Positions 9,489 to 51,662 of a stretch of DNA of 64,000 nt are shown here, in pieces. The DNA comes from Acidobacteriota bacterium (GTDB lineage: Bacteria; Acidobacteriota; B3-B38; Guanabaribacteriales; JAGGZT01). The notes beneath the pieces are model-generated. The model was not told the DNA's origin, did not search any database, and saw only the letters and a list, made by a program, of their open reading frames with translations. Made by a program: the position numbers and the translations under genes. The stretch covers positions 73,884 to 137,883 of the forward strand of contig JAGGZT010000004.1 of assembly GCA_021161905.1 (NCBI GenBank). Reading direction: 5' to 3'. The first letter of the stretch is position 1, and every line of letters begins with the position of its first letter.

Positions 9489-9567
9489 TGGTCGGGACGA
9501 GAGGATTTGAACCTCCGACCTCTGGACCCCCAGTCCAGCGCGCTAAACCAGCCTGCGCCACGTCCCG
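9489..9567 (-). tRNA. tRNA-Pro (anticodon GGG)
   Basis: Reverse-complement cloverleaf: acceptor CGGGACG/CGTCCCG, anticodon arm CTGGA-CTGGGGG-TCCAG (GGG), T-arm GGAGG-TTCAAAT-CCTCT, encoded CCA. The 3' half is nearly identical to the tRNA-Pro(CGG) at 7953-8030. Confidence 0.88.
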
Positions 9568-9574
9568 ACCCGAT

Positions 9575-9970
9575 TCATTTATTAACATCTCGCTCCAAGA
9601 TTGTCAAGAGATCGCTAAGCTCTTTTTTCACCCTCCTCAATATATCCCTTGCCTCATCCCCGCCAGAGGCAGAAATGGGGGGAGCTCCCTCCTTTCTCCT
9701 TCCAGCCAGCTCTTCAACGAGTTTCTTCCTCGCACCAGCGATGGTGTACCTCTCTTCGTAAAGGAGTTTCTTTATCTTAAGAACAATCTCGACATCACGG
9801 CGGGAATAAATCCGCTGTCCCGAAGAATTCTTCTCTGGGGAAAGGGGTTTAAACTCCGTCTCCCAATACCTAAGGACATAAGGGGGAACACCAACGATTT
9901 CCGCCACTTCTCCTATCTTAAAGTAGAGCTTTTCGCCCAACATCCTGTTCTTAAGCTTATCACTTGTCAT
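9575..9970 (-). CDS. MerR-family transcriptional regulator
   Basis: N-terminal HTH YFKIGEVAEIVGVPPYVLRYWETEF, the typical MerR recognition helix, followed by a coiled-coil C-terminus. Confidence 0.85.
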   Translation of the reverse strand: MTSDKLKNRMLGEKLYFKIGEVAEIVGVPPYVLRYWETEFKPLSPEKNSSGQRIYSRRDVEIVLKIKKLLYEERYTIAGARKKLVEELAGRRKEGAPPISASGGDEARDILRRVKKELSDLLTILERDVNK

Positions 9971-10268
9971 AACGGGTCATCCGGGTGGAGTTCAAATTGA
10001 GACGCTTCACAAAAAGCTGGGATGGCTTAAACACAACCGAGTAGTGTGAGGGAATCGACTGTCTTTCCCCTGTTTGTGGATTCACCACCTCCCTTTCGTT
10101 CTTCCTTCTTATAAAAAAAACCCCAAAACTGGATATCTTAACCTTCTCCCCCCGTTTCAACCTCATAGCGATTAGGGAGAAAATAAGGTCCACCAGATTA
10201 AGCGCCTCTTTTTTTAAAAGCCCCCCATGCCTGTGATATATCACCTCAGCCAAATCCTTCTTTGTCAT
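9960..10268 (-). CDS. HU/IHF-family DNA-binding protein (integration host factor-like)
   Basis: MTKKDLAEVIY...RLKRGEKVKISSFGVFFIRRKNEREVVNPQTGERQSIP matches the IHF/HU arm motif (GFGxF...R.aRNP.TGe). It overlaps the MerR gene by 11 nt. Confidence 0.85.
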   Translation of the reverse strand: MTKKDLAEVIYHRHGGLLKKEALNLVDLIFSLIAMRLKRGEKVKISSFGVFFIRRKNEREVVNPQTGERQSIPSHYSVVFKPSQLFVKRLNLNSTRMTRYDK

Positions 10269-12550
10269 CGGAACAACTCCACATCCCTCTCCTTAAGCAC
10301 CAGAGGAAGGGTTATCTCGTCACCTGACTTTAACAATATCACCTCGTCCCTCCTCCCCACCCCCTCCTTAACCGCGCTAAGCTGATAAGCTCCTGGAGAG
10401 ACCCCTTTTATAAGGTAATCTCCCTCCTCTGAGGAGAGGGTGGTAGCAACGAGCTTCCCCTCCCGATCGACCAGCTTCACGGTAGCCCCAGAAACAAAGG
10501 TGCCCCTGATAGTCAACACCTTTCCTCTTACTATACCACCTGCTGAACCAAATCTTTTAAAGGGAACCTCGATAAATTTATCCATCCCAGCAAAAACTTC
10601 CACCTCCCTCGTCTCCTCAGTATATCCATCCTTTAAAAAGGAAAGGGAGAATCCCCCTTCGGGAAGCTTCAGGAATTGGAATTTCCCCTCATTGTCGGTG
10701 AAGGTAGCGTCCTCATAGGAAAGGTCCCCTCTACCTTTCAGTATCACAATCACCTCGCCCACTCCTTCCTTGGTCTCATCGTCCAAAACCGCTCCTCGCA
10801 AAACCCCATAGCCGGGAGCGAGCTCGAGCTGTTTCGAAATAATTTTGGAAGCACCAGGAGTGAAGACCGCCCGCGAACGGAAAACCCGCTTATAGCCCTC
10901 TTTTGACGCCTGAAGTATATAATTTCTTCCCCGCTTCAAATCGGAAAACTCAAATTCTCCGTTAGCACCCGTCTTGGTGGTCCTCACTTCCTTGGTGCTC
11001 TCATCTATTAGTTCGATGGTGGCATCGGGAAGGGGGAATTGATTAGTGGTATCGTAAAGTTCCCCAACCACTTTAAATACCGGCTTCTCCAGGATGAGCT
11101 CCACCGAAACTTCCTCTCCCGGACTAATAGCCAGGATTTTCTTCGACTCGCTTCCCGAAAGATAGCCTGAGGCGCGAGCGGCTATAGTGTATGTCCCTGG
11201 GCGAACCTCATCGAAAGAAAAAGAGCCATCAGGAGTACTCCTTACCTCCTTTATCACATAACCCACACCATCGAGGATGTCAACTCGCACCTCGGGAAGA
11301 GGCTCACCAAAATCCGATAAAACCCTTCCTTTGACCTTACCCGGAGCCTTTATCTCAGTTTCAGCAGTAATATCCCCTCTCCCCTTTGAACCAGAAGACC
11401 TCGGCGAAAGCTTTACCGTAGGAGTTTCATCTCCTAAGAGGGCTTCTTCCTCTTCCGCTTCCTCTAAAGAAGTAGAATCGATAGGTTGAGGCACCGCTAA
11501 CGGCTTTCTCCTTGCGGAGTAAAACCTTAAGACCCAGTAAGTGGCAAGACCAGCAGCACCAGCCAACCCTATGATTAAGAGGATACCCATTAGCTTGCCA
11601 AATATCAGAGACTTAACCCTAAGCTCGAAGACAACTACCTTGAACCCCCCATTAAGCGCCTCCTCAGGTAGAGCTATCTTCCTTCCCGTCTCATCCCAAC
11701 AGGGAGAGCCCGGATTGGTATTGCTTACCTCCGATATCTCCCGCACAATGTTGCCCTCAGCATCCATAACATATAAACTCACTAACGCCCATTCCTTCTT
11801 GGCACAATAGGCTATAAGATTACCATCGGGAGAATAGGAGAAGGAGATAAGACCCGGGATCTTTCTCACCAGCCTGATGTCACTACCGTTAAAATTCATC
11901 TGGTAGATCCCAAGGTCGTTGTAAAGACCAGAGATAAAAGCTATTCTACCCAATCTCCTGGGACAACTCGGTGAGGAGGCATAGACTAAATCCGTAAGCT
12001 GGTTAAGCTCGCTTCCATCCCGGTTCACTATAAAAATCTGCCGATCCTTAACAAATACCAATCGCCTCCCTTCTGGGGTCCAGGCTGGCTCGGTTCCTCC
12101 TTTAGTGTTAGGAAGAGGAAACCTCTCTCCATCAGGCAGGGAAAAGATAACCAAATCGCTATCCTCATTTAAGAAACGAACGCAAACGATAAACTTACCA
12201 TCAGGCGAGAACCTGGGGAAGCTATATCTGACCGGAACCTCTACCTTTCTCCTTCTCCGGAAAAGGACCACCTTCTCCTCATTTGAGTTGGTAAGCCGGC
12301 GAAGGGTATCACCCTTCAGTTCATAGATGAATATATCCTTCCCATTATCAAAGGCGACCGACTTGCCATCGGGAGACCAATCGATATGGGCTATAAGGGA
12401 AATACCCTTGAGCTTCTTGGCGGGAATGAGGTCCATTTGCTCAGATGGCTTCAACCTTTCCAGATCCTTCTTGGAAAGCCCCTGAAACCCAAAGAGGAAA
12501 CACTCAAAGCCAAGAAAAAGGAAGAAGATTGCGAAAGTCTTACCTTTCAC
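10265..12550 (-). CDS. Membrane protein: signal peptide, TolB-like WD40/PD40 beta-propeller, a single TM helix, an acidic linker, and four tandem CarboxypepD_reg-like (transthyretin-fold) domains
   Basis: 761 aa. N-terminal signal sequence. PD40-like repeats (DWSPDGKSVAF, FSPDGKFIV, SYSPDGNLIAY). TM LMGILLIIGLAGAAGLATYWVLRFY. Then four ~85 aa repeats of type GRVLSDFGEPLPEVRVDIL...TPDGSFSFDEVRPGTYTIAARASGY. Overlaps the IHF-like gene by 4 nt. Confidence 0.7.
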   Translation of the reverse strand: MKGKTFAIFFLFLGFECFLFGFQGLSKKDLERLKPSEQMDLIPAKKLKGISLIAHIDWSPDGKSVAFDNGKDIFIYELKGDTLRRLTNSNEEKVVLFRRRRKVEVPVRYSFPRFSPDGKFIVCVRFLNEDSDLVIFSLPDGERFPLPNTKGGTEPAWTPEGRRLVFVKDRQIFIVNRDGSELNQLTDLVYASSPSCPRRLGRIAFISGLYNDLGIYQMNFNGSDIRLVRKIPGLISFSYSPDGNLIAYCAKKEWALVSLYVMDAEGNIVREISEVSNTNPGSPCWDETGRKIALPEEALNGGFKVVVFELRVKSLIFGKLMGILLIIGLAGAAGLATYWVLRFYSARRKPLAVPQPIDSTSLEEAEEEEALLGDETPTVKLSPRSSGSKGRGDITAETEIKAPGKVKGRVLSDFGEPLPEVRVDILDGVGYVIKEVRSTPDGSFSFDEVRPGTYTIAARASGYLSGSESKKILAISPGEEVSVELILEKPVFKVVGELYDTTNQFPLPDATIELIDESTKEVRTTKTGANGEFEFSDLKRGRNYILQASKEGYKRVFRSRAVFTPGASKIISKQLELAPGYGVLRGAVLDDETKEGVGEVIVILKGRGDLSYEDATFTDNEGKFQFLKLPEGGFSLSFLKDGYTEETREVEVFAGMDKFIEVPFKRFGSAGGIVRGKVLTIRGTFVSGATVKLVDREGKLVATTLSSEEGDYLIKGVSPGAYQLSAVKEGVGRRDEVILLKSGDEITLPLVLKERDVELFR

Positions 12551-12567
12551 CTTTATTTCTCAGGTTA

Positions 12568-13602
12568 TTATTTTTTTGTGATCTTTATCTCGAGGTTCAA
12601 TTTAAGGCGAACGAGTTCAACATCCTTATCAACGGTGATAGAAACGGGAAGGGAGATTTCCTTCTCTTCAATTTTGGCAGCTTTCGGCTTCTTCAGGGAC
12701 GGTGTCCCCCTCTTCTCAGTCTTATCAGCAACGATGGAGGAAGCCTTCCTTTCAGAAGAAACAAAATCACTCTCGGTGATTATCTCATCACCTATATCAA
12801 GATCTCCTGCCTGAATTTCGTAAAAATCCTCCACCTCATCGACCTTATTCGCGCTAACCTTTACTCTTTTTACACTCACCTCCTGAATAATCTCCGAAAG
12901 ATCTCCCTCCCTTTCCTCAAGTGTCTTCGGAGGAGTAGTAGCAATAGCCTCCGGTGGGGAGGTAGCCAACACCTCGTGCGACTCCTTAATTGCAGAAGTA
13001 TCTATCTCCTCCCCTCCGTACTCCTGCGATATCCTGGTGAGAACCAACCTCGCTACCTCTCTAAGAGATTCATAAACCCCCACCCCCCTTATCGCTATCC
13101 CCTCGAAATAAGGGGCACCGTATTTGTTCAACATCGTATTGATATCGGAGACAGGCATAATGTTCGGCAGGTCCCGTTTATTATACTGAACCACATGGGG
13201 AATGTCTCTGAGCCTCCTTCCCTGCTCCTTCAAGTTCTTCTCCAAATTGTCCCAGCTCTCCAGATTCGCCTCAAGCATCTCCTTCTGAGAATCGGCAACG
13301 AAAACCAATCCATCGACACCTTGAAGTACCAACTTCCTGGTGCTGTTATAAAAGACCTGCCCCGGAACGGTGTAAAGCTGGATTCTGATGTGCATCCCTT
13401 TTATTGTTCCAAGCTCGATGGGAAGGAAGTCAAAAAAGAGGGTCCTATCATCGGCAGTAGTCAGGGATATCATCTTCCCCTTGTTCCCCTGGGGAAGGCT
13501 GTTGTAGATGTACTGGAGATTGGTAGTCTTACCACTAAGGCCCGGTCCATAATAGACTATCTTAGCGGTTATCTCCTTGGTAGCATAATTGAAGAATACC
13601 AA
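12568..13602 (-). CDS. mglA: MglA-family Ras-like small GTPase with a ~150 aa acidic C-terminal extension
   Basis: The first ~195 aa align residue-by-residue with Myxococcus MglA: KIVYYGPGLSGKTTNLQYIY, TADDRTLFFDFLP, the MglA-specific LYTVPGQVFY G3 motif, and VQYNKRDLP (NKxD). The C-terminal extension (~150 aa, acidic then lysine-rich) has no recognisable domain. Confidence 0.85.
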   Translation of the reverse strand: MVFFNYATKEITAKIVYYGPGLSGKTTNLQYIYNSLPQGNKGKMISLTTADDRTLFFDFLPIELGTIKGMHIRIQLYTVPGQVFYNSTRKLVLQGVDGLVFVADSQKEMLEANLESWDNLEKNLKEQGRRLRDIPHVVQYNKRDLPNIMPVSDINTMLNKYGAPYFEGIAIRGVGVYESLREVARLVLTRISQEYGGEEIDTSAIKESHEVLATSPPEAIATTPPKTLEEREGDLSEIIQEVSVKRVKVSANKVDEVEDFYEIQAGDLDIGDEIITESDFVSSERKASSIVADKTEKRGTPSLKKPKAAKIEEKEISLPVSITVDKDVELVRLKLNLEIKITKK

Positions 13603-13682
13603 CTCTTTCTCTCCTCTTAAAACTACCGTATTTTTTAAAAGTTTACCACAAGAGAGGAGGAGGCGTCAATCAAATTAGCTTC

Positions 13683-14993
13683 CTACTCGCTCTTTCTAAG
13701 CTTTATCACCAGCGGCGTCCCGGTGAAATCAAACGCCTCGCGGAACCTGTTCTTCAGATAACGAAGATAATTCTTGGAGATCCGATCCGGATCGTTAACG
13801 AAGAGGACAAAAGTAGGCGGGCTAACCGAAACCTGGGTACCATAATAGATCTTAGGAAACCCCTTCCTGGACGCCGGAGGACGATATCGAGAAATAATCC
13901 CTCTTAAGAACTGATTCAAAACACCGGTGGGTATCCTTCTTCTCCTATTTTCTGCCACCTTCTCCGCTGCCTCAACCGCTCGGTAAACGCCCCTTCCCTC
14001 TTTCGCTGAAATGAAGAGGATGGGCGAATAGTCAATCGGTTTAAGCCTTTCCTTGATCCTCGCCCGATATGCCTCTTCCAGCCCCTTCCTTTTCGGAAGG
14101 AGATCCCACTTATTCATCGCTATCACCAGTCCCACTCCAGCACTATGAGTGAAATGAGCGATAGCGACATCTTGGCTGGTGATTCCTTCCTCAGCATCAA
14201 GAAGAAGAATAGCCACCTCCGCTCGCTCGAGACTCCCTCGTGCTTTAAGAACACTCACCACTTCGAAACGCTCCTTGATCCTGCTTTTTCTCCTTATCCC
14301 CGCCGTATCGATTATCCGATATCTCTTTCCCTTATAGGAGAAAACCAAATCAACCGCATCGCGTGTAGTTCCCGGCTTTTCATGAACGAGTACCTTCTCC
14401 TCTCCAATAAGTCGGTTGACCAAGGTTGACTTGCCCACATTGGGCCTTCCCACCACCACCAGCTTCGTCTCTTCCTCCGGTTCCTCCTCTTTCGAAACCG
14501 AGGGGATCAAAGAGACCACCCGATCGAGCAACCTCCCTATTCCCCGATTATGCTCCGCGGAGATAGGGATTACCTCGGAGAGTCCAAGTTCATAGAACTG
14601 GTACAGATTGACGAGATGTTTTTCTTCATCGATCTTGTTCACCACCAATATAAAGGGCTTATCGTAGCGACGAATAAGCTGGATCAACTCCTCATCCAGT
14701 GGGGAAACCCCGGTCTTGGCGTCAACCACAAAAAGGAGGACATCCGCCTCCTCTACAACTGAGAGTACCCGCTCCCGCACCTTCTCGAAAAGAGAATCAT
14801 CAGTGAAAAGATCAAGGCCTCCGGTATCGATGAGATTGAACCTCTTACCCTCCCACTCCACCTCCGAGATAAGACAATCCCGGGTGATACCCGGGGTGGG
14901 ATCTACAATAGCCCGCCTGCTCCGGGTAATCCGGTTAAATAGGGTTGATTTACCCACATTGGGCCTTCCCAGTATCACTACCTGCGGATACAT
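13683..14993 (-). CDS. der: Ribosome-associated GTPase Der (EngA), tandem GTPase domains plus KH-like C-terminus
   Basis: Two P-loops (GRPNVGKSTLFNR and GRPNVGKSTLVNR) and two DTxG/NKxD sets; 436 aa. Confidence 0.95.
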   Translation of the reverse strand: MYPQVVILGRPNVGKSTLFNRITRSRRAIVDPTPGITRDCLISEVEWEGKRFNLIDTGGLDLFTDDSLFEKVRERVLSVVEEADVLLFVVDAKTGVSPLDEELIQLIRRYDKPFILVVNKIDEEKHLVNLYQFYELGLSEVIPISAEHNRGIGRLLDRVVSLIPSVSKEEEPEEETKLVVVGRPNVGKSTLVNRLIGEEKVLVHEKPGTTRDAVDLVFSYKGKRYRIIDTAGIRRKSRIKERFEVVSVLKARGSLERAEVAILLLDAEEGITSQDVAIAHFTHSAGVGLVIAMNKWDLLPKRKGLEEAYRARIKERLKPIDYSPILFISAKEGRGVYRAVEAAEKVAENRRRRIPTGVLNQFLRGIISRYRPPASRKGFPKIYYGTQVSVSPPTFVLFVNDPDRISKNYLRYLKNRFREAFDFTGTPLVIKLRKSE

Positions 14994-45958: not shown

Positions 45959-48673
45959 ATGAAGGAAGAAAGGATAGTTTGTCCTCATTGTAAAACAGAG
46001 AATGTAGCCGACGCCAAATTCTGCAAGGAATGTGGTCTTCCCTTAAAGGGCGAAATAGATGAAGAAGCAGAAACCCTCCCCATAGGTAAGACCGAAAGAA
46101 AAAGGGCGAGGAAGAAAAAAGAGGAAGCAATCACAACAGAAGGGCTTGAATTAGGGAAGAGATATAAGATAATCCGGAAGATCGGCGAAGGAGGGATGGG
46201 TGCGGTCTATGAGGCGGAGGACAACATCCTCAATGTCAGGGTGGCACTAAAGGTGCTCCTCCCCCAACTTACCTCTGATGAAGAGGTCCGTGAGCGATTC
46301 AAGAGAGAGCTCTTGGTTACCCGAAACCTCTCTCATAAAAACATCGTCCGGGTATTCGACATCGGCGAGGGAACGCTTGGCGATGCTCCGGTACTTTACA
46401 TATCGATGGAACTTCTCAGAGGGACGACCCTTAAGCGGAAGATAGAGGATGAGGGAGCGCTCGAAATGAACCAGGCGATAAACATCATCAAACAGCTCTG
46501 TTCCGCTTTGGAAGAAGCTCATAAATCAGGGGTGGTGCATCGGGATGTAAAGCCTCAGAACATCTTCCTCGACGAGCGGAATCAGGTGAAGCTGGTGGAC
46601 TTCGGCATCGCTCGGGTTGGGGGAACAAAGCACCTCACCGCCACTGGATATACCTATGGTACCCCCGATTATATGGCACCAGAACAGGCGGACCCAAAAC
46701 AGGAGGTGGATTACAGAGCTGATCTCTACTCTTTGGGAGTGGTGATATACGAGATGTTTACCGGAGAACTCCCATTTAAGGGGGAGACCCCGCTAAAGGT
46801 GATTATGCAACACTTGAAAGAACCGCCACCTCCTCCCCGCTCGGTAAAGCCAGATCTCCCCATCTGGATAGAACGGATCATCTTAAAAGCAATGGAGAAA
46901 GAAAAGGAGAAACGGTATCAGAGCGCAATGGAGATAGTGAAGGACTTCCTTATCCAAAGGTTTCTCGAGGAGAGTAGAGAGAAAAGGTATAGAAGCGAGG
47001 CAGAGATAATCGAAGACTTGAGAAGCACCATAGTTGCTGAAGAAAAACCGGAGACAAAAGAAGAAAAAGAGAATGTAAAAAGACTGGAAAGAATGATGGA
47101 ACGGGAGCTCCGGGAGGAAGCGAAGTTCAAGGAGCTCATCCGGAGGGAGGAAAGAAAGGCAGCCTCCCTCCGTATTATGGTGTTCACCATCGCCCTCTTC
47201 GTTGCCCTTTCTGGGTTGGTACTTTATTACTTTATGGCGATAAGGGGGAAGAAGTCTCTCCCTCAGCCGGCTAAGATGGAGGCGGTCGCTTATTTTAAGC
47301 AACATGGGGTGATGCCCCTCTACTACGATGAGAACATTCCGGTCTCGGAGAAGGTGAGAAAGCTCAGAAAGAAGGCTGAGTTGGCAATAAAAGAGGGGAA
47401 GATTGTTGAGCCAGATAATGATTGTGCCCTTCGCTATCTAAACGATATCCTCTTCTACGAACCAACCGACCAATACGCCCAGGCCACAAAGGAAAAGCTT
47501 GCTGCCCACCTTCTGGTTCAGGGGGATGAGGCGCTGGCACAGGGGGAGAAGGAAAAAGCAAAAAAGAGTTATCTCTCCTATCTGGAGATATTCCCCAAAA
47601 ATAAAGAGGTTAAAAGTAGGCTGGCTTTACTTAATCCATCTCCAACCGAGGAAAAGCCTGAAAAAGCAACCTCTTCCCAACCATCTCTTTCCCCTTCCTC
47701 ACCGAAAAGCATCGAGGAACTCTTCACCGAGCTCGAAACCATTTTCAATAAAAGGGACTACTTCACCTCCCGAAGATTGGTAGAGGAGATACTCGCCAAG
47801 GACCCAGAAAATCCCATCGCTCTTGACTATTTAAAGAAGATAAACCAAGCGGAGGAGCGGTTGGTGAGGCTACGAGCGGAAGCCAAGAACCTTCTCGAAA
47901 GTGGTATCTACTATCAGGCGGAGAAAAAGGCTACCGAGATCCTAAAGGAGAACCCCGAAGATAACGAAGCAAGGCAGATACTTTCGGAAGCAAGAAGAAG
48001 GAGGGCAAGGATCCCCAAGGATATGGTACTGATACCCGCCTCCTCCTTCCTTATGGGTTCTCCCAGCCCTAGCGCTGGAGAAAAACCGATGAGGAAGGTC
48101 TATCTAAAATCTTTCCTCATAGACAAATATGAGGTTACCAACCAAAAGTACTTCCGGTTCATCTCAGCAACCGGGCACCGAATCCCCTTCGTTTACGCCA
48201 ATTGGGCACAACCTTACAACTGGCGAGGAGGACACTTCCCTGAAGGGAAAGAGAATTATCCGGTAGTACTGGTGAGCTATGCCGATGCCTTGGCATACGC
48301 CAACTGGGCGGGGAAAAGACTTCCTACTGAGGCAGAATGGGAAAAGGCGGCTCGCTATCTTGATGGACGGAATTATCCTTGGGGAAATATCTTCAAACCC
48401 GGCTATGCCAATTCAGCAGAGATGGGGATCAACGTTCCAGTAAGAGTAGGTAGTTTTCCTCAAGGGGTGAGCTTTTACGGTGTATTCGATATGGCGGGAA
48501 ATGTCTGGGAGTGGACCAGCGATTGGTTCTCCAATGGCCACTCATTCCGGGTGATAAAGGGAGGGTCCTTCCTCGAAGGTAAGGCAAAACTATTAACCTA
48601 TGCCCGGGAAGGAGAACGACCGAGCGCCATGCGGATAGATGTTGGATTTCGTTGTGTGAGGGATGTCAGGTAG
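45959..48673 (+). CDS. Ser/Thr protein kinase with N-terminal zinc ribbon, TM helix, TPR-like region and C-terminal FGE-sulfatase (SUMF1) domain
   Basis: Zinc ribbon CPHCKTEN...CKECG. Hanks kinase motifs (GEGGMGAVYEA, VALKVL, HRDVKPQNIFL, DFGIAR, GTPDYMAPE). TM LRIMVFTIALFVALSGLVLYYF. FGE domain (MVLIPASSFLMGS..., YRLPTEAEWEKAAR, WEWTSDWF). Confidence 0.85.
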   Translation: MKEERIVCPHCKTENVADAKFCKECGLPLKGEIDEEAETLPIGKTERKRARKKKEEAITTEGLELGKRYKIIRKIGEGGMGAVYEAEDNILNVRVALKVLLPQLTSDEEVRERFKRELLVTRNLSHKNIVRVFDIGEGTLGDAPVLYISMELLRGTTLKRKIEDEGALEMNQAINIIKQLCSALEEAHKSGVVHRDVKPQNIFLDERNQVKLVDFGIARVGGTKHLTATGYTYGTPDYMAPEQADPKQEVDYRADLYSLGVVIYEMFTGELPFKGETPLKVIMQHLKEPPPPPRSVKPDLPIWIERIILKAMEKEKEKRYQSAMEIVKDFLIQRFLEESREKRYRSEAEIIEDLRSTIVAEEKPETKEEKENVKRLERMMERELREEAKFKELIRREERKAASLRIMVFTIALFVALSGLVLYYFMAIRGKKSLPQPAKMEAVAYFKQHGVMPLYYDENIPVSEKVRKLRKKAELAIKEGKIVEPDNDCALRYLNDILFYEPTDQYAQATKEKLAAHLLVQGDEALAQGEKEKAKKSYLSYLEIFPKNKEVKSRLALLNPSPTEEKPEKATSSQPSLSPSSPKSIEELFTELETIFNKRDYFTSRRLVEEILAKDPENPIALDYLKKINQAEERLVRLRAEAKNLLESGIYYQAEKKATEILKENPEDNEARQILSEARRRRARIPKDMVLIPASSFLMGSPSPSAGEKPMRKVYLKSFLIDKYEVTNQKYFRFISATGHRIPFVYANWAQPYNWRGGHFPEGKENYPVVLVSYADALAYANWAGKRLPTEAEWEKAARYLDGRNYPWGNIFKPGYANSAEMGINVPVRVGSFPQGVSFYGVFDMAGNVWEWTSDWFSNGHSFRVIKGGSFLEGKAKLLTYAREGERPSAMRIDVGFRCVRDVR

Positions 48674-50585
48674 GGGTATTCTTGGTCACCGGGGTTCCAC
48701 AATAAGGGCAGACCACCCACTCTATATGGAGGGCTTTCCCACAATTTTCACACACATTTCCTAACGGTTCCCCACAGAAGGGGCAGGCTTCAAAGGAGGC
48801 ACTCACCGACCGCTTACAATTAGGACAGATGGTAACCAGGTCCTCTTTCTTTCCGACAACTCGGAATATTTCCTCGATAGTGGTTACTCCCTTCTTCACC
48901 TTTTCGATACCATCCTCAGTTAAGGTAACGAACCCTTCAGATAGAGCCACCTCCCTAATAGCGTGATCCGATGCCCCCGCATGGATTAGATCCCTTATCC
49001 TGGGAGAAATGGTGAGCATCTCGGCAATAGCGGTTCTCCCAAAATATCCGGTATTATTGCAAAACTCACACCCTTTCCCTCGATAGAACTTGAAATCGAT
49101 ATTCTTCTTATCCAGATTGAAGTTCTGCAGTATCTTCCTCGGCGGACGATATTCCGTTTTGCAATGGGGACAAACCTTCCGCACCAATCGCTGGGCAACC
49201 ACCCCGATCAAGGAGGAGGCGAGGAGAAAGGGGGGGACCCCTAAATTTATCATCCGCGAGATGGCGGAAACCGCATCATTGGTATGAAGGGTGCTGAATA
49301 CCAAGTGCCCGGTCAATGAAGCCTGAACAGCGATCTCCGCTGTTTCAGGGTCACGAATCTCCCCCACCATAATGATATTCGGGTCCTGTCGCAGGATGGA
49401 TCGAAGCACATAAGCAAAGGTAAGCCCTACCTTCTCGTTTATCTGAACCTGGTTAACCCCAGTGAGGTCATACTCAATGGGGTCCTCAACGGTGATGATA
49501 TTAACCGTTTCCGATTTGAGCTCATTTAGGCAGGCATAGAGGGTGGATGACTTTCCGGAACCGGTAGGACCAGTAACCAAAATCATCCCTTCCGCCCGCT
49601 CGATGAAGCTCCTCAATTTCTCCTCATTATAATCGGAGAAACCAAGGTTCTCCAGGTTGAGCATAGCCTCGCTCTGGTCAAGGATCCGAATGACCACCTT
49701 TTCGCCGTAATGGGTGGGAAGAGTAGATACTCGGAGATCAACCTCCTTCCTCCCCACCTTAGCCCTCACCTTTCCATCTTGGGGGAGCCTTTTTTCCGTT
49801 ATATTCATATTGGCTAATATCTTCACTCGCTGCACCAGGATCGCCTGGGACCACTTGGGGAGCTTGATCACATCCTGAAGAAAACCATCTATCCTGTGTC
49901 TTATCTGAACCGCCTCTCGTTGGGGTTCAATATGAATATCGCTCGCCCGCTTGTGGATGGCATCCTTTATTATGAGATCAACCATCTTGACAAACGGGGC
50001 TTGCTCCTCACGGATAGTCTCCTCTTCCTCTTCCTCCTTCTCCTCTTCGATCACCTCAATCCCAGCGCTATCAAGCATAATATCACCGGCGAAATCCTTT
50101 ATTGAATCTTCTATATGGTAAAATTTCTTTATTCCTTCGATAATCTCACTTGGGGTGGAGACCACTGGTTTTACCTCATAACCAGTGATGAACCTTATGT
50201 CATCGATGGCATTTAGATCGAGAGGATCAGCCATCGCCAAGGTAAGGGTCTTGTTCTCCACCTTTATCGGAAGACAGGTATACTTCTTGGCAAACTTCTC
50301 CGGCAAGAGCTCCACCGCCTCTGGCTCCACCGGGGTATTGTGAATATCAACTACCGGGATCTTCAACTGAAGGGCTAAGATGACCGCAATATCCTCCTCC
50401 GTCACAAACTTAAGATCGATTAACGCCTGGCCCAATCTCTTCTTGGTCTTTTGTTGGAGCTCCAAGCCAGTATTGAGCTGATCCACAGTGATAAGACCAG
50501 CTTCGAGAAGGAGATCACCCAACTTCTTCTTCGAGGTGATTACCTTCTTATCTCTCTCTTCTCGATCTATTTCTTCGTTAGCCAT
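48666..50585 (-). CDS. Type II secretion / type IV pilus assembly ATPase (GspE/PilB family) with a C-terminal triple zinc-ribbon extension
   Basis: T2SE_Nter/MSH-like N-terminus. Walker A VTGPTGSGKSST. Internal CPHC...C tetracysteine. About 60 extra C-terminal aa: CPNCKRS...CPFCGEPLGNVCENCGK...CPYCGT. Confidence 0.85.
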   Translation of the reverse strand: MANEEIDREERDKKVITSKKKLGDLLLEAGLITVDQLNTGLELQQKTKKRLGQALIDLKFVTEEDIAVILALQLKIPVVDIHNTPVEPEAVELLPEKFAKKYTCLPIKVENKTLTLAMADPLDLNAIDDIRFITGYEVKPVVSTPSEIIEGIKKFYHIEDSIKDFAGDIMLDSAGIEVIEEEKEEEEEETIREEQAPFVKMVDLIIKDAIHKRASDIHIEPQREAVQIRHRIDGFLQDVIKLPKWSQAILVQRVKILANMNITEKRLPQDGKVRAKVGRKEVDLRVSTLPTHYGEKVVIRILDQSEAMLNLENLGFSDYNEEKLRSFIERAEGMILVTGPTGSGKSSTLYACLNELKSETVNIITVEDPIEYDLTGVNQVQINEKVGLTFAYVLRSILRQDPNIIMVGEIRDPETAEIAVQASLTGHLVFSTLHTNDAVSAISRMINLGVPPFLLASSLIGVVAQRLVRKVCPHCKTEYRPPRKILQNFNLDKKNIDFKFYRGKGCEFCNNTGYFGRTAIAEMLTISPRIRDLIHAGASDHAIREVALSEGFVTLTEDGIEKVKKGVTTIEEIFRVVGKKEDLVTICPNCKRSVSASFEACPFCGEPLGNVCENCGKALHIEWVVCPYCGTPVTKNTPT

Positions 50586-50590
50586 TTTCC

Positions 50591-51034
50591 CTATTGATTC
50601 TTGTATAAACCATCCTGAAGGAAGATCCCATTGGAAAAAACAATGTCATCGATCGTGTTCGGTTTCCCATCTATTCCATCGGAGAAAATATAGTAGTTAA
50701 CTCCATCAAAGGAAAAATAACGAAGAGGCTTTCCAAAAGCATCCCTTATCGGCACCACCCTTAAATAATTCCCTTTCTCCAGCGCTTTCTTCAACTCCTC
50801 CATTCTATCGGTAATAGGGAAGAGACTCTGATCCGATTGGTAGAGAAGAAGAGCTTTAGCCAAATAGGATATGCTCGCCTCCGTCGTTCCTTCCCGTGCT
50901 TTATCCAACGCCTCTCGATAAAGCGGGATGGTTATTATAGCTAAGATGGAAATAATCGCCACACTGACCAATACCTCAATTAGGGTTGCTCCCCGCTCCC
51001 TTAATCGATGCTCGTTTTTCCTCATCTCTATCAT
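50591..51034 (-). CDS. Type IV pilin / pseudopilin-like protein (prepilin-type N-terminus)
   Basis: Leader MIEMRKNEHRLRERG, then ATLIEVLVSVAIISILAIITIP. The G-x-TLIE methylation motif and hydrophobic helix are present, but the residue after Gly is A instead of F/M. Confidence 0.7.
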   Translation of the reverse strand: MIEMRKNEHRLRERGATLIEVLVSVAIISILAIITIPLYREALDKAREGTTEASISYLAKALLLYQSDQSLFPITDRMEELKKALEKGNYLRVVPIRDAFGKPLRYFSFDGVNYYIFSDGIDGKPNTIDDIVFSNGIFLQDGLYKNQ

Positions 51035-51044
51035 CCACTCAGAA

Positions 51045-51662
51045 TCATTTCCCCACTGTGGAAAGTGTATCTATTATCCTCCCTGTCTTAGCAACTACGA
51101 TCTTAGCTCTTCTCCCTCCAAAACTTCCCGTCCAGCTTAGAAGATAACCCAATTCCCTGTCTTTTTTATAGCTTAACTCCTTACTTAATAAGAAAGAAAG
51201 CTTGAATTCAGGCAGATACTGGGGAATAAGCTCAGAGAGCTTATTGGGGTATTCTCCATTATTAAGCCGGCTGTAATTCTTGAGAGCCATATTTATAAAA
51301 TCAATATTTGTATTGATATATTGGCGATAATTCTCATTTAAACTTCTCTTTCTCTCAAGGTAAAGACGACTATAGAAAACACCCTCCGCCACCGCCAAAC
51401 CAAGCATAATGAACATCGCTATCCTTAACCGGGAAACTGTCTTCTTCTTTCCCTTCAGATAAAGTTCTCGTTCTCTTCTAAGCTTCTCTATCTTCTTCTC
51501 TTCCTTCTCAAAATTGACCAGCGACTCCTCAATGGCGCATCTAAAACAATAATACCGCCCCTTTACCTTCTTCATAACACAATCTTCACATAGAGGCTCT
51601 CCACATTTAAAGCAATGAGCAATTATCTCCTTCCCATGAATCGAACACTTAGCCATCTTCAC
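51045..51662 (-). CDS. B-box/zinc-ribbon N-terminal domain membrane protein of unknown function
   Basis: CSIHGKEIIAHCFKCGEPLCEDC...YYCFRCA zinc-binding module, coiled-coil, one TM (IAMFIMLGLAVAEGVFY), periplasmic C-terminus. Confidence 0.55.
   Translation of the reverse strand: MKMAKCSIHGKEIIAHCFKCGEPLCEDCVMKKVKGRYYCFRCAIEESLVNFEKEEKKIEKLRRERELYLKGKKKTVSRLRIAMFIMLGLAVAEGVFYSRLYLERKRSLNENYRQYINTNIDFINMALKNYSRLNNGEYPNKLSELIPQYLPEFKLSFLLSKELSYKKDRELGYLLSWTGSFGGRRAKIVVAKTGRIIDTLSTVGK

What the first reader, a model, noticed from the sequence alone, without database searches (positions are those of the whole stretch)
12568..13602. MglA-family GTPase with a long C-terminal extension and no adjacent MglB
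The first ~195 aa are an unmistakable MglA: P-loop GPGLSGKTT, the MglA-specific TVPGQ G3 motif in place of DxxGQ, and NKRD. In Myxococcus and most described systems mglA is preceded by mglB, the Roadblock/LC7 GAP. Here the upstream gene is der and there is no Roadblock-sized ORF anywhere in the operon. The GTPase instead carries ~150 extra C-terminal residues (acidic, then Lys-rich, low complexity). It is the first gene of a four-gene operon. This resembles SofG-type extended MglA paralogues. The extension might replace MglB function or act as a localisation or partner-binding tail.
Basis: partly seen in the sequence, partly recalled or inferred. Interest (0 to 1): 0.55.

Follow-up and report, generated by a model that had tools for sequence, protein, structure and literature searches.

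The report
Long-tailed orphan MglA GTPase subfamily
The gene encodes a genuine MglA-type molecular-switch GTPase from a large, apparently undescribed subfamily, mostly in Acidobacteriota, that never sits next to its usual partner MglB and carries a floppy acidic linker ending in a conserved 30-residue beta-hairpin, probably a tether or assembly handle.

Summary
The ORF at 12568-13602 (-) encodes 344 aa. Residues 1-195 align end to end with solved MglA structures (E 1e-73). G21, R53, T54, T78-V-P-G-Q82 and N141-K-R-D144 are all intact. No MglB or Roadblock gene was found in the 64-kb window.

The tail is neither a frameshift product nor plain low complexity. It is a fast-evolving acidic linker (aa 196-313) followed by a conserved C-terminal motif (aa 314-344). 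That motif is present in 110 of the 120 best database hits and is predicted to form a long amphipathic beta-hairpin.

In 80 genome loci from one-genome-per-species sampling, plus 7 other loci and the window:
- 0 of 36 long forms have MglB nearby.
- 44 of 47 short MglAs have MglB adjacent.

Long and short G domains separate in a tree. Related variants end in a transmembrane helix (Planctomycetota) or a coiled coil (Rokubacteria). This favours a flexible tether with a terminal anchoring or assembly module over a built-in MglB substitute.

The 2014 census of prokaryotic small GTPases excluded proteins over 240 aa, and I found no description of this class. Verdict: a new variant of a known kind, of moderate interest. 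The function of the tail is inferred, not shown.

The parts
12568..13602 (-). Long-form mglA gene (344 aa plus stop). It is identical to NCBI MCD6450879.1, annotated 'hypothetical protein [Acidobacteria bacterium]'.
13018..13602 (-). MglA G domain, aa 1-195.
   Evidence: Gap-free alignment to residues 1-195 of 5ymx, E 1.4e-73. Identity to close relatives is 88%, 71% and 69%.
13525..13548 (-). P-loop G19-P-G21-L-S-G-K-T26. G21 is retained.
   Evidence: G21 in 157 of 157 long forms
13441..13446 (-). R53, at the position of MglA's intrinsic arginine finger, and T54.
   Evidence: Invariant in 157 long and 47 short forms. The role of the arginine is from PMC4316618.
13357..13371 (-). G3 motif T78-V-P-G-Q82 (no Asp; catalytic Gln).
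13171..13182 (-). G4 motif N141-K-R-D144.
12664..13017 (-). Variable acidic linker, aa 196-313. It is probably disordered and becomes Lys-rich near its end.
   Evidence: Net charge is -10 over aa 196-310. Identity drops to 48%, 24% and 20% in the same relatives. Family linker length is 68-248 aa. AF2 pLDDT is 31-49.
12796..12831 (-). Mid-linker acidic/aromatic island E258-DFYEIQAGDLD269.
   Evidence: It aligns with ESWMNELEAGDLE and EEWINELQAGDLE in P0003, P0004 and P0008. It is conserved only in the window's own sub-clade.
12571..12663 (-). Conserved C-terminal motif, aa 314-344 (KEISLPVSITVDKDVELVRLKLNLEIKITKK). It is predicted to be an amphipathic beta-hairpin. P319 is invariant.
   Evidence: The motif sits 27-42 aa (27-32 in all but one) from the C-terminus in 110 of 120 hits. 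P319 is invariant. AF2 of aa 308-344 gives strands at aa 310-324 and 327-341, pLDDT 79. It is the best-scoring part of the full-length model.
13611..13616 (-). Shine-Dalgarno-like GAGGAG, 8 nt before the TTG start.
13640..13669 (-). Promoter-like site TTGACG-18-TAAACT in the der-mglA gap. This is a weak consensus match only.
   Evidence: 9 of 12 positions; the number of sites found equals the shuffle expectation
13683..14993 (-). der/engA. It lies directly upstream in 8 long-mglA loci, counting the window (and probably in L016, where the called ORF overlaps der).
10265..12550 (-). 761-aa membrane protein: N-terminal hydrophobic segment, PD40/TolB-like propeller, internal hydrophobic (probably membrane-spanning) segment, then 4 CarboxypepD_reg domains. 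It starts 18 nt after mglA. It is present only here and in the 72%-identical relative.
9960..10268 (-). IHF/HU-family DNA-binding protein. It lies immediately after long mglA in L002 and L007.
9575..9970 (-). MerR-family regulator, which follows the IHF gene in the same loci.

Best explanation
The gene encodes a functional MglA-type GTP/GDP switch from a distinct 'long' subfamily found mainly in Acidobacteriota. The G domain keeps the whole MglA catalytic apparatus, so it should bind and hydrolyse GTP as MglA does. The 149-residue extension is a flexible, acidic, fast-evolving tether. It ends in a conserved 30-residue amphipathic beta-hairpin with one fully aliphatic face. I infer that the hairpin is the working end of the tail. 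It buries its hydrophobic face either by self-association or by strand addition to a partner or scaffold. This would fix where the switch sits, or how many copies come together, much as the hypervariable region and C-terminal anchor do in eukaryotic Ras and Rab. Any GAP or GEF would act in trans from elsewhere in the genome, or the protein would cycle slowly by itself. Shown here: family membership, intact catalytic motifs, the three-part architecture and its conservation, the systematic absence of adjacent MglB, and the hairpin prediction. Inferred: disorder of the linker, what the hairpin binds, and the cellular process controlled.
For: G domain: the match to solved MglAs covers residues 1-195 at E 1e-73. 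G19, G21, R53, T54, T78, P80, G81, Q82 and NKRD are invariant in all 157 long forms, and V79 in 156. Architecture: 110 of the 120 best hits (300-430 aa) carry the KE[IV]x[VIL]P...[RK]LxLK motif close to the C-terminus (27-32 aa in all but one), and the other 10 are mostly truncated fragments. Identity runs G domain > hairpin > linker: 88/65/48% to P0002 and 71/42/24% to P0003. Hairpin: AF2 on aa 308-344 with 35 sequences predicts two 15-residue strands at pLDDT 79. Hydrophobic residues alternate in both strands (and the sequence itself). A profile of the tail searched against 1.84 billion proteins gave 73 hits. The 21 I read were fragments of long MglAs or the terminal strand pair of repeat units in giant proteins. 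Orphan status: 0 of 36 long loci have MglB, against 44 of 47 short loci. Separate clade: the NJ tree splits long from short with one exception, and nine residues are diagnostic. Analogy for a tether plus terminal module: Planctomycetota MglAs have a Pro/Ala-rich linker and a C-terminal transmembrane helix, and a Rokubacteria long form ends in a heptad-like coiled-coil segment.
Against: No experiment or contact map supports any particular binding mode. The full-length AF2 model was poor (mean pLDDT 51, G domain included), and the tool gives no coordinates or PAE. Only one of the five tail-only models reached pLDDT 79; the others scored 61-69. No gene neighbour is conserved across the whole subfamily to suggest a partner. 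The rest of the source genome could not be searched, so a trans-acting MglB or RomR/RomX is assumed, not shown.
Confidence: 0.55

Rival explanations
1. Cis-regulatory tail. The acidic linker, the hairpin or both fold back on the G domain. The acidic segment could occupy the allosteric pocket that binds the D/E-rich C-terminal helix of MglB (and, as proposed, of RomR). The hairpin could add to the beta2 edge strand like a Ras-binding domain. Either would give built-in autoinhibition or exchange-factor-like control and make an adjacent MglB unnecessary.
For: The MglA allosteric pocket is formed by helix alpha5 (K181, K185), strand beta2 and the beta2-beta3 loop (L64, I67), and it accepts acidic helices (PMC6785124). 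The window protein has L64, I67, R181 and R185. The tail leaves helix alpha5 directly and carries a net charge of -14 over its first 80 residues, with an acidic/aromatic island at aa 258-269. MglB is absent from all 36 long loci. In the full-length AF2 model the hairpin scored higher than the rest of the protein.
Against: The basic pocket residues are less conserved in long forms than in short ones. Position 185 is K or R in 68 of 157 long forms against 44 of 47 short forms. Position 192 has no K or R among its four commonest residues in long forms (146 of 157 sequences), against 42 of 47 K/R in short forms. The acidic islands are not conserved between sub-clades. G21 and the switch regions stay MglA-like, as expected for a protein still served by a GAP in trans. 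No contact evidence is available.
Confidence: 0.2
2. A housekeeping role coupled to ribosome or nucleoid functions rather than polarity or motility. This is suggested by the recurrent gene order HU(-), der, long mglA, then IHF and MerR.
For: der lies directly upstream in 8 long loci counting the window, probably also in L016, and the carriers named by taxon include two Polarisedimenticolia MAGs. An HU gene often lies divergent before der. IHF and MerR follow immediately in the window, L001, L002 and L007. No terminator-like site lies between der and mglA.
Against: The linkage is absent in Thermoanaerobaculia and Holophagae long loci. It may therefore simply be inherited gene order. A promoter-like site lies in the gap. 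Nothing known about MglA points to ribosome or nucleoid roles.
Confidence: 0.1
3. Artefact: an ordinary short mglA fused to downstream sequence by a frameshift or lost stop codon, with a meaningless tail.
For: None beyond the unusual length and the biased composition of the linker.
Against: The same architecture and C-terminal motif occur in 110 of 120 independent homologues from many assemblies and in 35 further loci from NCBI, JGI, ENA and Logan assemblies. Six other members at 90% identity or more include five of the same 344-aa length. The hairpin is better conserved than the linker.
Confidence: 0.02

Closest known systems
Canonical MglA (Group 1 of Wuichet & Sogaard-Andersen 2014; M. xanthus and T. 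thermophilus; PDB 5ymx, 6izw, 3t12)
   Same: The G domain aligns over its full length at about 59% median identity. It has the same N-terminal strand region, P-loop with G21, R53, T54, TVPGQ and NKRD. The allosteric-pocket residues L64 and I67 are kept, and positions 181 and 185 are basic.
   Different: There are 149 extra C-terminal residues (linker plus conserved hairpin). There is no adjacent mglB, whereas 44 of 47 short MglAs in related genomes have one. It forms a separate clade with diagnostic residues F4, T12, A13, L36, M70, Q75, N86, T88 and V92.
SofG, the orphan MglA paralogue of M. xanthus
   Same: It is an MglA-family GTPase that is not coupled to MglB, is longer than MglA, and keeps the arginine at the finger position (PMC4316618).
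   Different: SofG is reported as 239 aa, so its extension is much shorter. I could not retrieve its sequence, so relatedness of the G domains and of the extensions was not tested. No bactofilin gene was noticed next to any long mglA.
Bdellovibrio bacteriovorus MglA (orphan, no MglB in the genome)
   Same: It is an MglA that works without an adjacent MglB (PMC3983030).
   Different: The Bdellovibrio protein is short and has S21 in place of G21. The long forms all keep G21 (157 of 157) and carry the tail.
Eukaryotic Ras/Rab/Rho hypervariable region plus C-terminal membrane anchor (functional analogy only)
   Same: The layout is the same: a G domain, then a variable disordered stretch, then a short conserved C-terminal targeting element.
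   Different: There is no homology of the tails and no lipidation motif. Here the terminal element is a beta-hairpin. The analogy rests on my general knowledge, plus the transmembrane-anchored Planctomycetota variants seen.
Terminal strand pair of the repeat units in giant repeat proteins (pattern ...TITIPVTVTDDKGATDTENLIIKITG...)
   Same: The strand-turn-strand sequence pattern is the same. These proteins were the only non-MglA hits of the tail profile among the 21 hits I read.
   Different: Their scores come from summing 3-12 repeats, and each match covers only part of a larger repeat unit. I take this as support for a hairpin conformation, not for homology.

Membership tests
MglA family (Group 1-type) small GTPase | Ras-like G domain that aligns over its full length with characterised MglA | tested here: met
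   Residues 1-195 align to 1-195 of 5ymx at E 1.4e-73, against E >= 1e-7 for Arf and Rab. Pfam and NCBIfam have no MglA-specific model; they gave only weak Arf, Ras and small_GTP hits.
MglA family (Group 1-type) small GTPase | G3 motif lacking the conserved Asp (TxxGQ) and carrying the catalytic Gln | tested here: met
   T78-V-P-G-Q82 is present. T78, P80, G81 and Q82 are invariant in 157 long forms, and V79 in 156.
MglA family (Group 1-type) small GTPase | Intrinsic arginine finger in switch I (R53) | tested here: met
   R53-T54 are present and invariant. The definition is from PMC4316618.
MglA family (Group 1-type) small GTPase | Canonical G1 (GxxxxGKT) and G4 ([NT]KxD) motifs | tested here: met
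   GPGLSGKT at aa 19-26 and NKRD at aa 141-144.
MglA family (Group 1-type) small GTPase | Single-domain protein of 150-240 aa (the size criterion of the 2014 census) | tested here: not met
   The protein is 344 aa. The census kept only proteins of 150-240 aa (PMC4316618).
Coupled MglA/MglB module | mglB (Roadblock/LC7) encoded within four genes of mglA | tested here: not met
   There is no MglB hit in the 64-kb window, and none in the DNA held around any of the 36 long loci (up to 10 kb each side, less on short contigs).
Coupled MglA/MglB module | An MglB or other Roadblock GAP somewhere in the same genome | not testable with these tools
SofG-type MglA paralogue | Sequence relatedness of the G domain and extension to SofG | not tested
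   The SofG sequence was not obtainable here. Only its length (239 aa) and orphan status are known, from PMC4316618.
SofG-type MglA paralogue | Functional link to the bactofilin cytoskeleton and type IV pilus ATPases | not testable with these tools
   No bactofilin gene was seen in the loci examined. A PilB-like ATPase lies 35 kb away in the window, which is not informative.
Long-form MglA subfamily (defined here) | N-terminus MV[LF]FNY[AS]T[KR]E[IL]TAK plus the diagnostic residues F4, T12, A13, L36, M70, Q75, N86, T88, V92 | tested here: met
   All nine residues are present in the window protein.
Long-form MglA subfamily (defined here) | Variable linker followed by the C-terminal KE[IV]x[VIL]P...[RK]LxLK hairpin motif at the very C-terminus | tested here: met
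   The motif spans aa 314-344 and P319 is invariant.

The most novel reading that the evidence does not exclude
The long-form MglAs would be self-contained polarity or assembly switches. The tail would do in cis what MglB and RomR/RomX do in trans. The acidic linker would occupy the allosteric alpha5/beta2-beta3 pocket to tune nucleotide exchange. The hairpin would bind the beta2 edge strand according to nucleotide state, giving GTP-dependent head-to-tail self-assembly or release from autoinhibition. That would be a new regulatory logic for a prokaryotic Ras-like GTPase, widespread in Acidobacteriota.
Probability: 0.12. Interest if true: 0.8.

Novelty: new variant of a known kind. Interest (0 to 1): 0.5.

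Why it matters
MglA is the model for Ras-like spatial switches in bacteria. Nearly all mechanistic knowledge comes from short MglAs paired with the GAP MglB. This work identifies a large sister group in one of the most abundant soil and sediment phyla. The group has dropped the genomic pairing with MglB and acquired a conserved tether-and-hairpin tail. Related lineages show a membrane anchor or a coiled coil in the same position. If the tail sets localisation or oligomeric state, bacterial small GTPases would have arrived independently at the 'hypervariable region plus C-terminal anchor' design of eukaryotic Ras and Rab. The class also fell outside the size window of the reference census, so it is a concrete gap in that census. 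It can be tested, because cultured Geothrix species carry a member.

Tried and rejected
1. Full-length AF2 with a 71-sequence alignment gave mean pLDDT 51, with even the G domain unconvincing. The tool returns no coordinates or PAE, so tail docking could not be judged. I did not run a fold search on that model.
2. The tail-only profile search was meant to find the hairpin in other protein contexts. Of 73 hits I read 21. All were fragments of long MglAs or giant repeat proteins, so no new context emerged.
3. De novo clustering of neighbours in the 36 long loci found no partner gene conserved across the subfamily. I saw only lineage-specific blocks: der/HU, divergent amidohydrolases in Thermoanaerobaculia, and a divergent FHA protein in Holophagae.
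4. The 761-aa TolB/CarboxypepD_reg protein just downstream was considered as a partner. I rejected it as a general partner because it occurs only in the window and its 72%-identical relative.
5. Co-occurrence of long and short mglA/mglB in one genome could not be tested. No assembly appears twice among the 80 loci, but only the best 80 of 597 matches were kept.
6. Four literature searches found no description of long MglAs. The library does not cover most subscription journals.
7. The frameshift or mis-joined ORF idea is rejected.
8. A secretion or sorting signal was considered from memory only and not pursued. The tail has no PEP-CTERM-like hydrophobic helix.

Full report
**Observation**

The ORF at 12568-13602 on the minus strand encodes 344 aa. 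It starts at TTG, 8 nt after GAGGAG.

Against all PDB chains, residues 1-195 align without gaps to residues 1-195 of M. xanthus MglA (5ymx, E 1.4e-73) and to T. thermophilus MglA (3t12, E 5.5e-70). Arf and Rab proteins follow at E >= 1e-7. Pfam and NCBIfam give only weak Arf, Ras and small_GTP hits. They returned no MglA-specific hit, so the PDB comparison is the real membership test.

The exact protein is in NCBI as MCD6450879.1, 'hypothetical protein [Acidobacteria bacterium]', from a MAG contig of 162,648 bp.

**The tail is real and has structure**

The 120 best matches among 5.8 billion proteins are almost all 300-430 aa long. In 110 of them a motif of the form KE[IV]x[VIL]P[ILV]x[ILV]...[RK]LxLK lies 27-42 residues from the C-terminus, and 27-32 in all but one. 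The other ten are mostly truncated fragments.

The region between the G domain and the motif varies from 68 to 248 residues and barely aligns between sub-clades. Identity between the window protein and its relatives, by region:

| Relative | G domain | Linker | Motif |
|---|---|---|---|
| P0002 | 88% | 48% | 65% |
| P0003 | 71% | 24% | 42% |

This is the signature of a domain, a disordered linker and a functional terminal element. It rules out a frameshift.

In the window protein the linker has a net charge of -14 over aa 196-275 and +4 over aa 276-310.

AF2 on aa 308-344 with 35 diverse tails predicts one long hairpin. The strands are aa 310-324 and 327-341, with pLDDT 79 for the best model and 61-69 for the other four. 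Aliphatic residues alternate in both strands, so one face is entirely hydrophobic (and the sequence itself). P319 is invariant.

A profile of the tail searched against 1.84 billion representative proteins gave 73 hits. The 21 I read were either fragments of long MglAs or giant repeat proteins whose repeat units end in a similar strand-turn-strand. This supports the hairpin conformation. It also shows that the module was not detected in any other protein context.

**A separate, orphan subfamily**

A scan of one genome per species returned 80 loci. Seven more loci came from homologues' contigs. I called the ORFs in all of them and built an MglB HMM from 37 genes lying just upstream of short mglA genes.

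| MglA form | Loci | MglB within the DNA held |
|---|---|---|
| Short (192-208 aa) | 47 | 44 (adjacent) |
| Long (window included) | 36 | 0 |

The window itself has no MglB hit at E <= 10 with filters off. There is no Robl_LC7 domain in the 26 window proteins scanned with Pfam.

Long forms occur in Thermoanaerobaculia, Holophagae (including cultured Geothrix), Polarisedimenticolia and Vicinamibacteria. There is also one Rokubacteria MAG and one 'Proteobacteria' MAG.

In a neighbour-joining tree of G domains, long and short forms fall on opposite sides of one split, with a single exception, L052. Nine positions are diagnostic: F4, T12, A13, L36, M70, Q75, N86, T88 and V92.

The catalytic residues G21, R53, T54 and Q82, and the NKRD motif, are invariant in all 157 long forms. 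This differs from MglB-less Bdellovibrio, whose MglA has S21 (PMC3983030).

**Genomic context**

On the same strand, in order:
- der ends 80 nt upstream of mglA.
- A 761-aa TolB-like/CarboxypepD_reg membrane protein starts 18 nt after mglA.
- An IHF/HU gene follows with a 4-nt overlap.
- A MerR gene follows with an 11-nt overlap.
- tRNA-Pro and surE come next.

'First gene of a four-gene operon' is plausible but not established. The der-mglA gap has no terminator-like site and only a 9/12 promoter-like match.

der lies directly upstream in 8 long loci counting the window, and probably in a ninth, L016, where the called ORF overlaps der. IHF and MerR follow directly in four loci. The 761-aa gene is present only here and in the 72%-identical relative. 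Other lineages have different neighbours. No partner gene is conserved across the subfamily.

**How it probably works**

The G domain should be a working MglA-type switch. For the tail I favour a flexible tether ending in an anchoring or assembly module (confidence 0.55). Three observations support this:
- The hairpin has a face that must be buried.
- The linker tolerates almost any sequence and length.
- Related proteins carry other terminal modules in the same place.

On the last point, Planctomycetota MglAs have a Pro/Ala-rich linker and a C-terminal transmembrane helix, with mglB downstream. The Rokubacteria long form ends in a heptad-like coiled-coil segment.

The main rival is a cis-regulatory tail (confidence 0.2). 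In M. xanthus the acidic C-terminal helix of MglB binds an allosteric pocket on MglA and promotes nucleotide exchange. The pocket is formed by helix alpha5 (K181, K185) and the beta2-beta3 loop (L64, I67). A Glu-rich helix of RomR is proposed to bind there too (PMC6785124). The window protein keeps L64, I67, R181 and R185, and its acidic linker starts right after alpha5.

Against this rival, the basic alpha5 residues are less conserved in long forms than in short ones. At position 185, K or R occurs in 68 of 157 long forms against 44 of 47 short forms. The acidic islands also differ between sub-clades. I have no contact evidence either way. The full-length AF2 model was poor (pLDDT 51) and no PAE is available.

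A housekeeping role tied to der and IHF is possible (confidence 0.1). An artefact is excluded (confidence 0.02).

**Comparison with what is known, and novelty**

The protein meets every sequence criterion for a Group 1-type MglA. It fails two contextual criteria: coupling to MglB and the 150-240 aa size limit.

That size limit was the inclusion criterion of the reference census of prokaryotic small GTPases (PMC4316618), so long forms were left out of it. Four full-text searches found no description of them. Public annotations read 'hypothetical protein', 'GTPase domain-containing protein' or 'SRP receptor subunit beta'.

SofG is reported as 239 aa, and I could not compare it directly. The 'SofG-type' label therefore remains untested.

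I rate this a new variant of a known kind, with interest 0.5. It is a clear and widespread architectural class with a testable, conserved terminal element, but its function rests on inference.

Noticed in passing
L034:396-1760, L049:6611-7681, L082:9869-11017 (Planctomycetota MAGs): These MglA homologues start MVQINF... and carry a long Pro/Ala-rich linker and a C-terminal hydrophobic transmembrane-like helix. Each has an mglB gene immediately downstream (E 1e-33 to 1e-37 against my MglB HMM). They look like tail-anchored MglAs.
   Followed up: partly
L050:9854-11236 (Candidatus Rokuibacteriota MAG): This long-form MglA has the MVLFNYATKEITAK N-terminus, but its tail ends in a heptad-like, probably coiled-coil segment (LEERVDRLADDMRRLQEENRELRESLERIF) instead of the hairpin motif.
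   Followed up: no
L052:10001-11038 ('Proteobacteria bacterium' MAG): In this 345-aa MglA the G domain groups with the short, canonical clade, yet the tail ends in the hairpin motif (NEIELPLKIMAGGKEKAIKIRLKIEVGEE). It may be an intermediate form or a case of tail transfer.
   Followed up: no
L010, L022, L027, L028, L030, about 60-150 nt upstream of long mglA on the opposite strand (Holophagae, including Geothrix): A protein of about 333 aa whose N-terminus looks like an FHA domain (by eye; not scanned) is transcribed divergently from long mglA in all five Holophagae loci.
   Followed up: no
window 10265-12550 (-): This 761-aa protein has an N-terminal hydrophobic segment, a PD40/TolB-like propeller, an internal hydrophobic (probably membrane-spanning) segment and four CarboxypepD_reg domains. 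If the internal segment spans the membrane, the Ig-like repeats would be cytoplasmic, which would be unusual. The gene is inserted between mglA and ihf only here and in L001.
   Followed up: partly
window 48666-51662 (-): This cluster encodes a PilB/GspE-type ATPase with an MshEN domain and C-terminal double zinc ribbons, a prepilin-type (N_methyl/T2SSG) protein, and a 205-aa B-box zinc-finger protein. It shows that type IV pilus or T2SS-like machinery is present in the organism.
   Followed up: no
window 45959-48673 (+): This 904-aa protein combines an N-terminal zinc ribbon, a Ser/Thr protein kinase domain and a C-terminal FGE-sulfatase (formylglycine-generating enzyme-like) domain.
   Followed up: no
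window 12445-13620 (+): A 391-aa open frame lies antisense to mglA. It is a shadow ORF and not a gene, but ORF callers that rank by length would prefer it.
   Followed up: yes
window 9489-9567 (-): tRNA-Pro (GGG) sits between the MerR gene and surE on the same strand as the mglA cluster.
   Followed up: no
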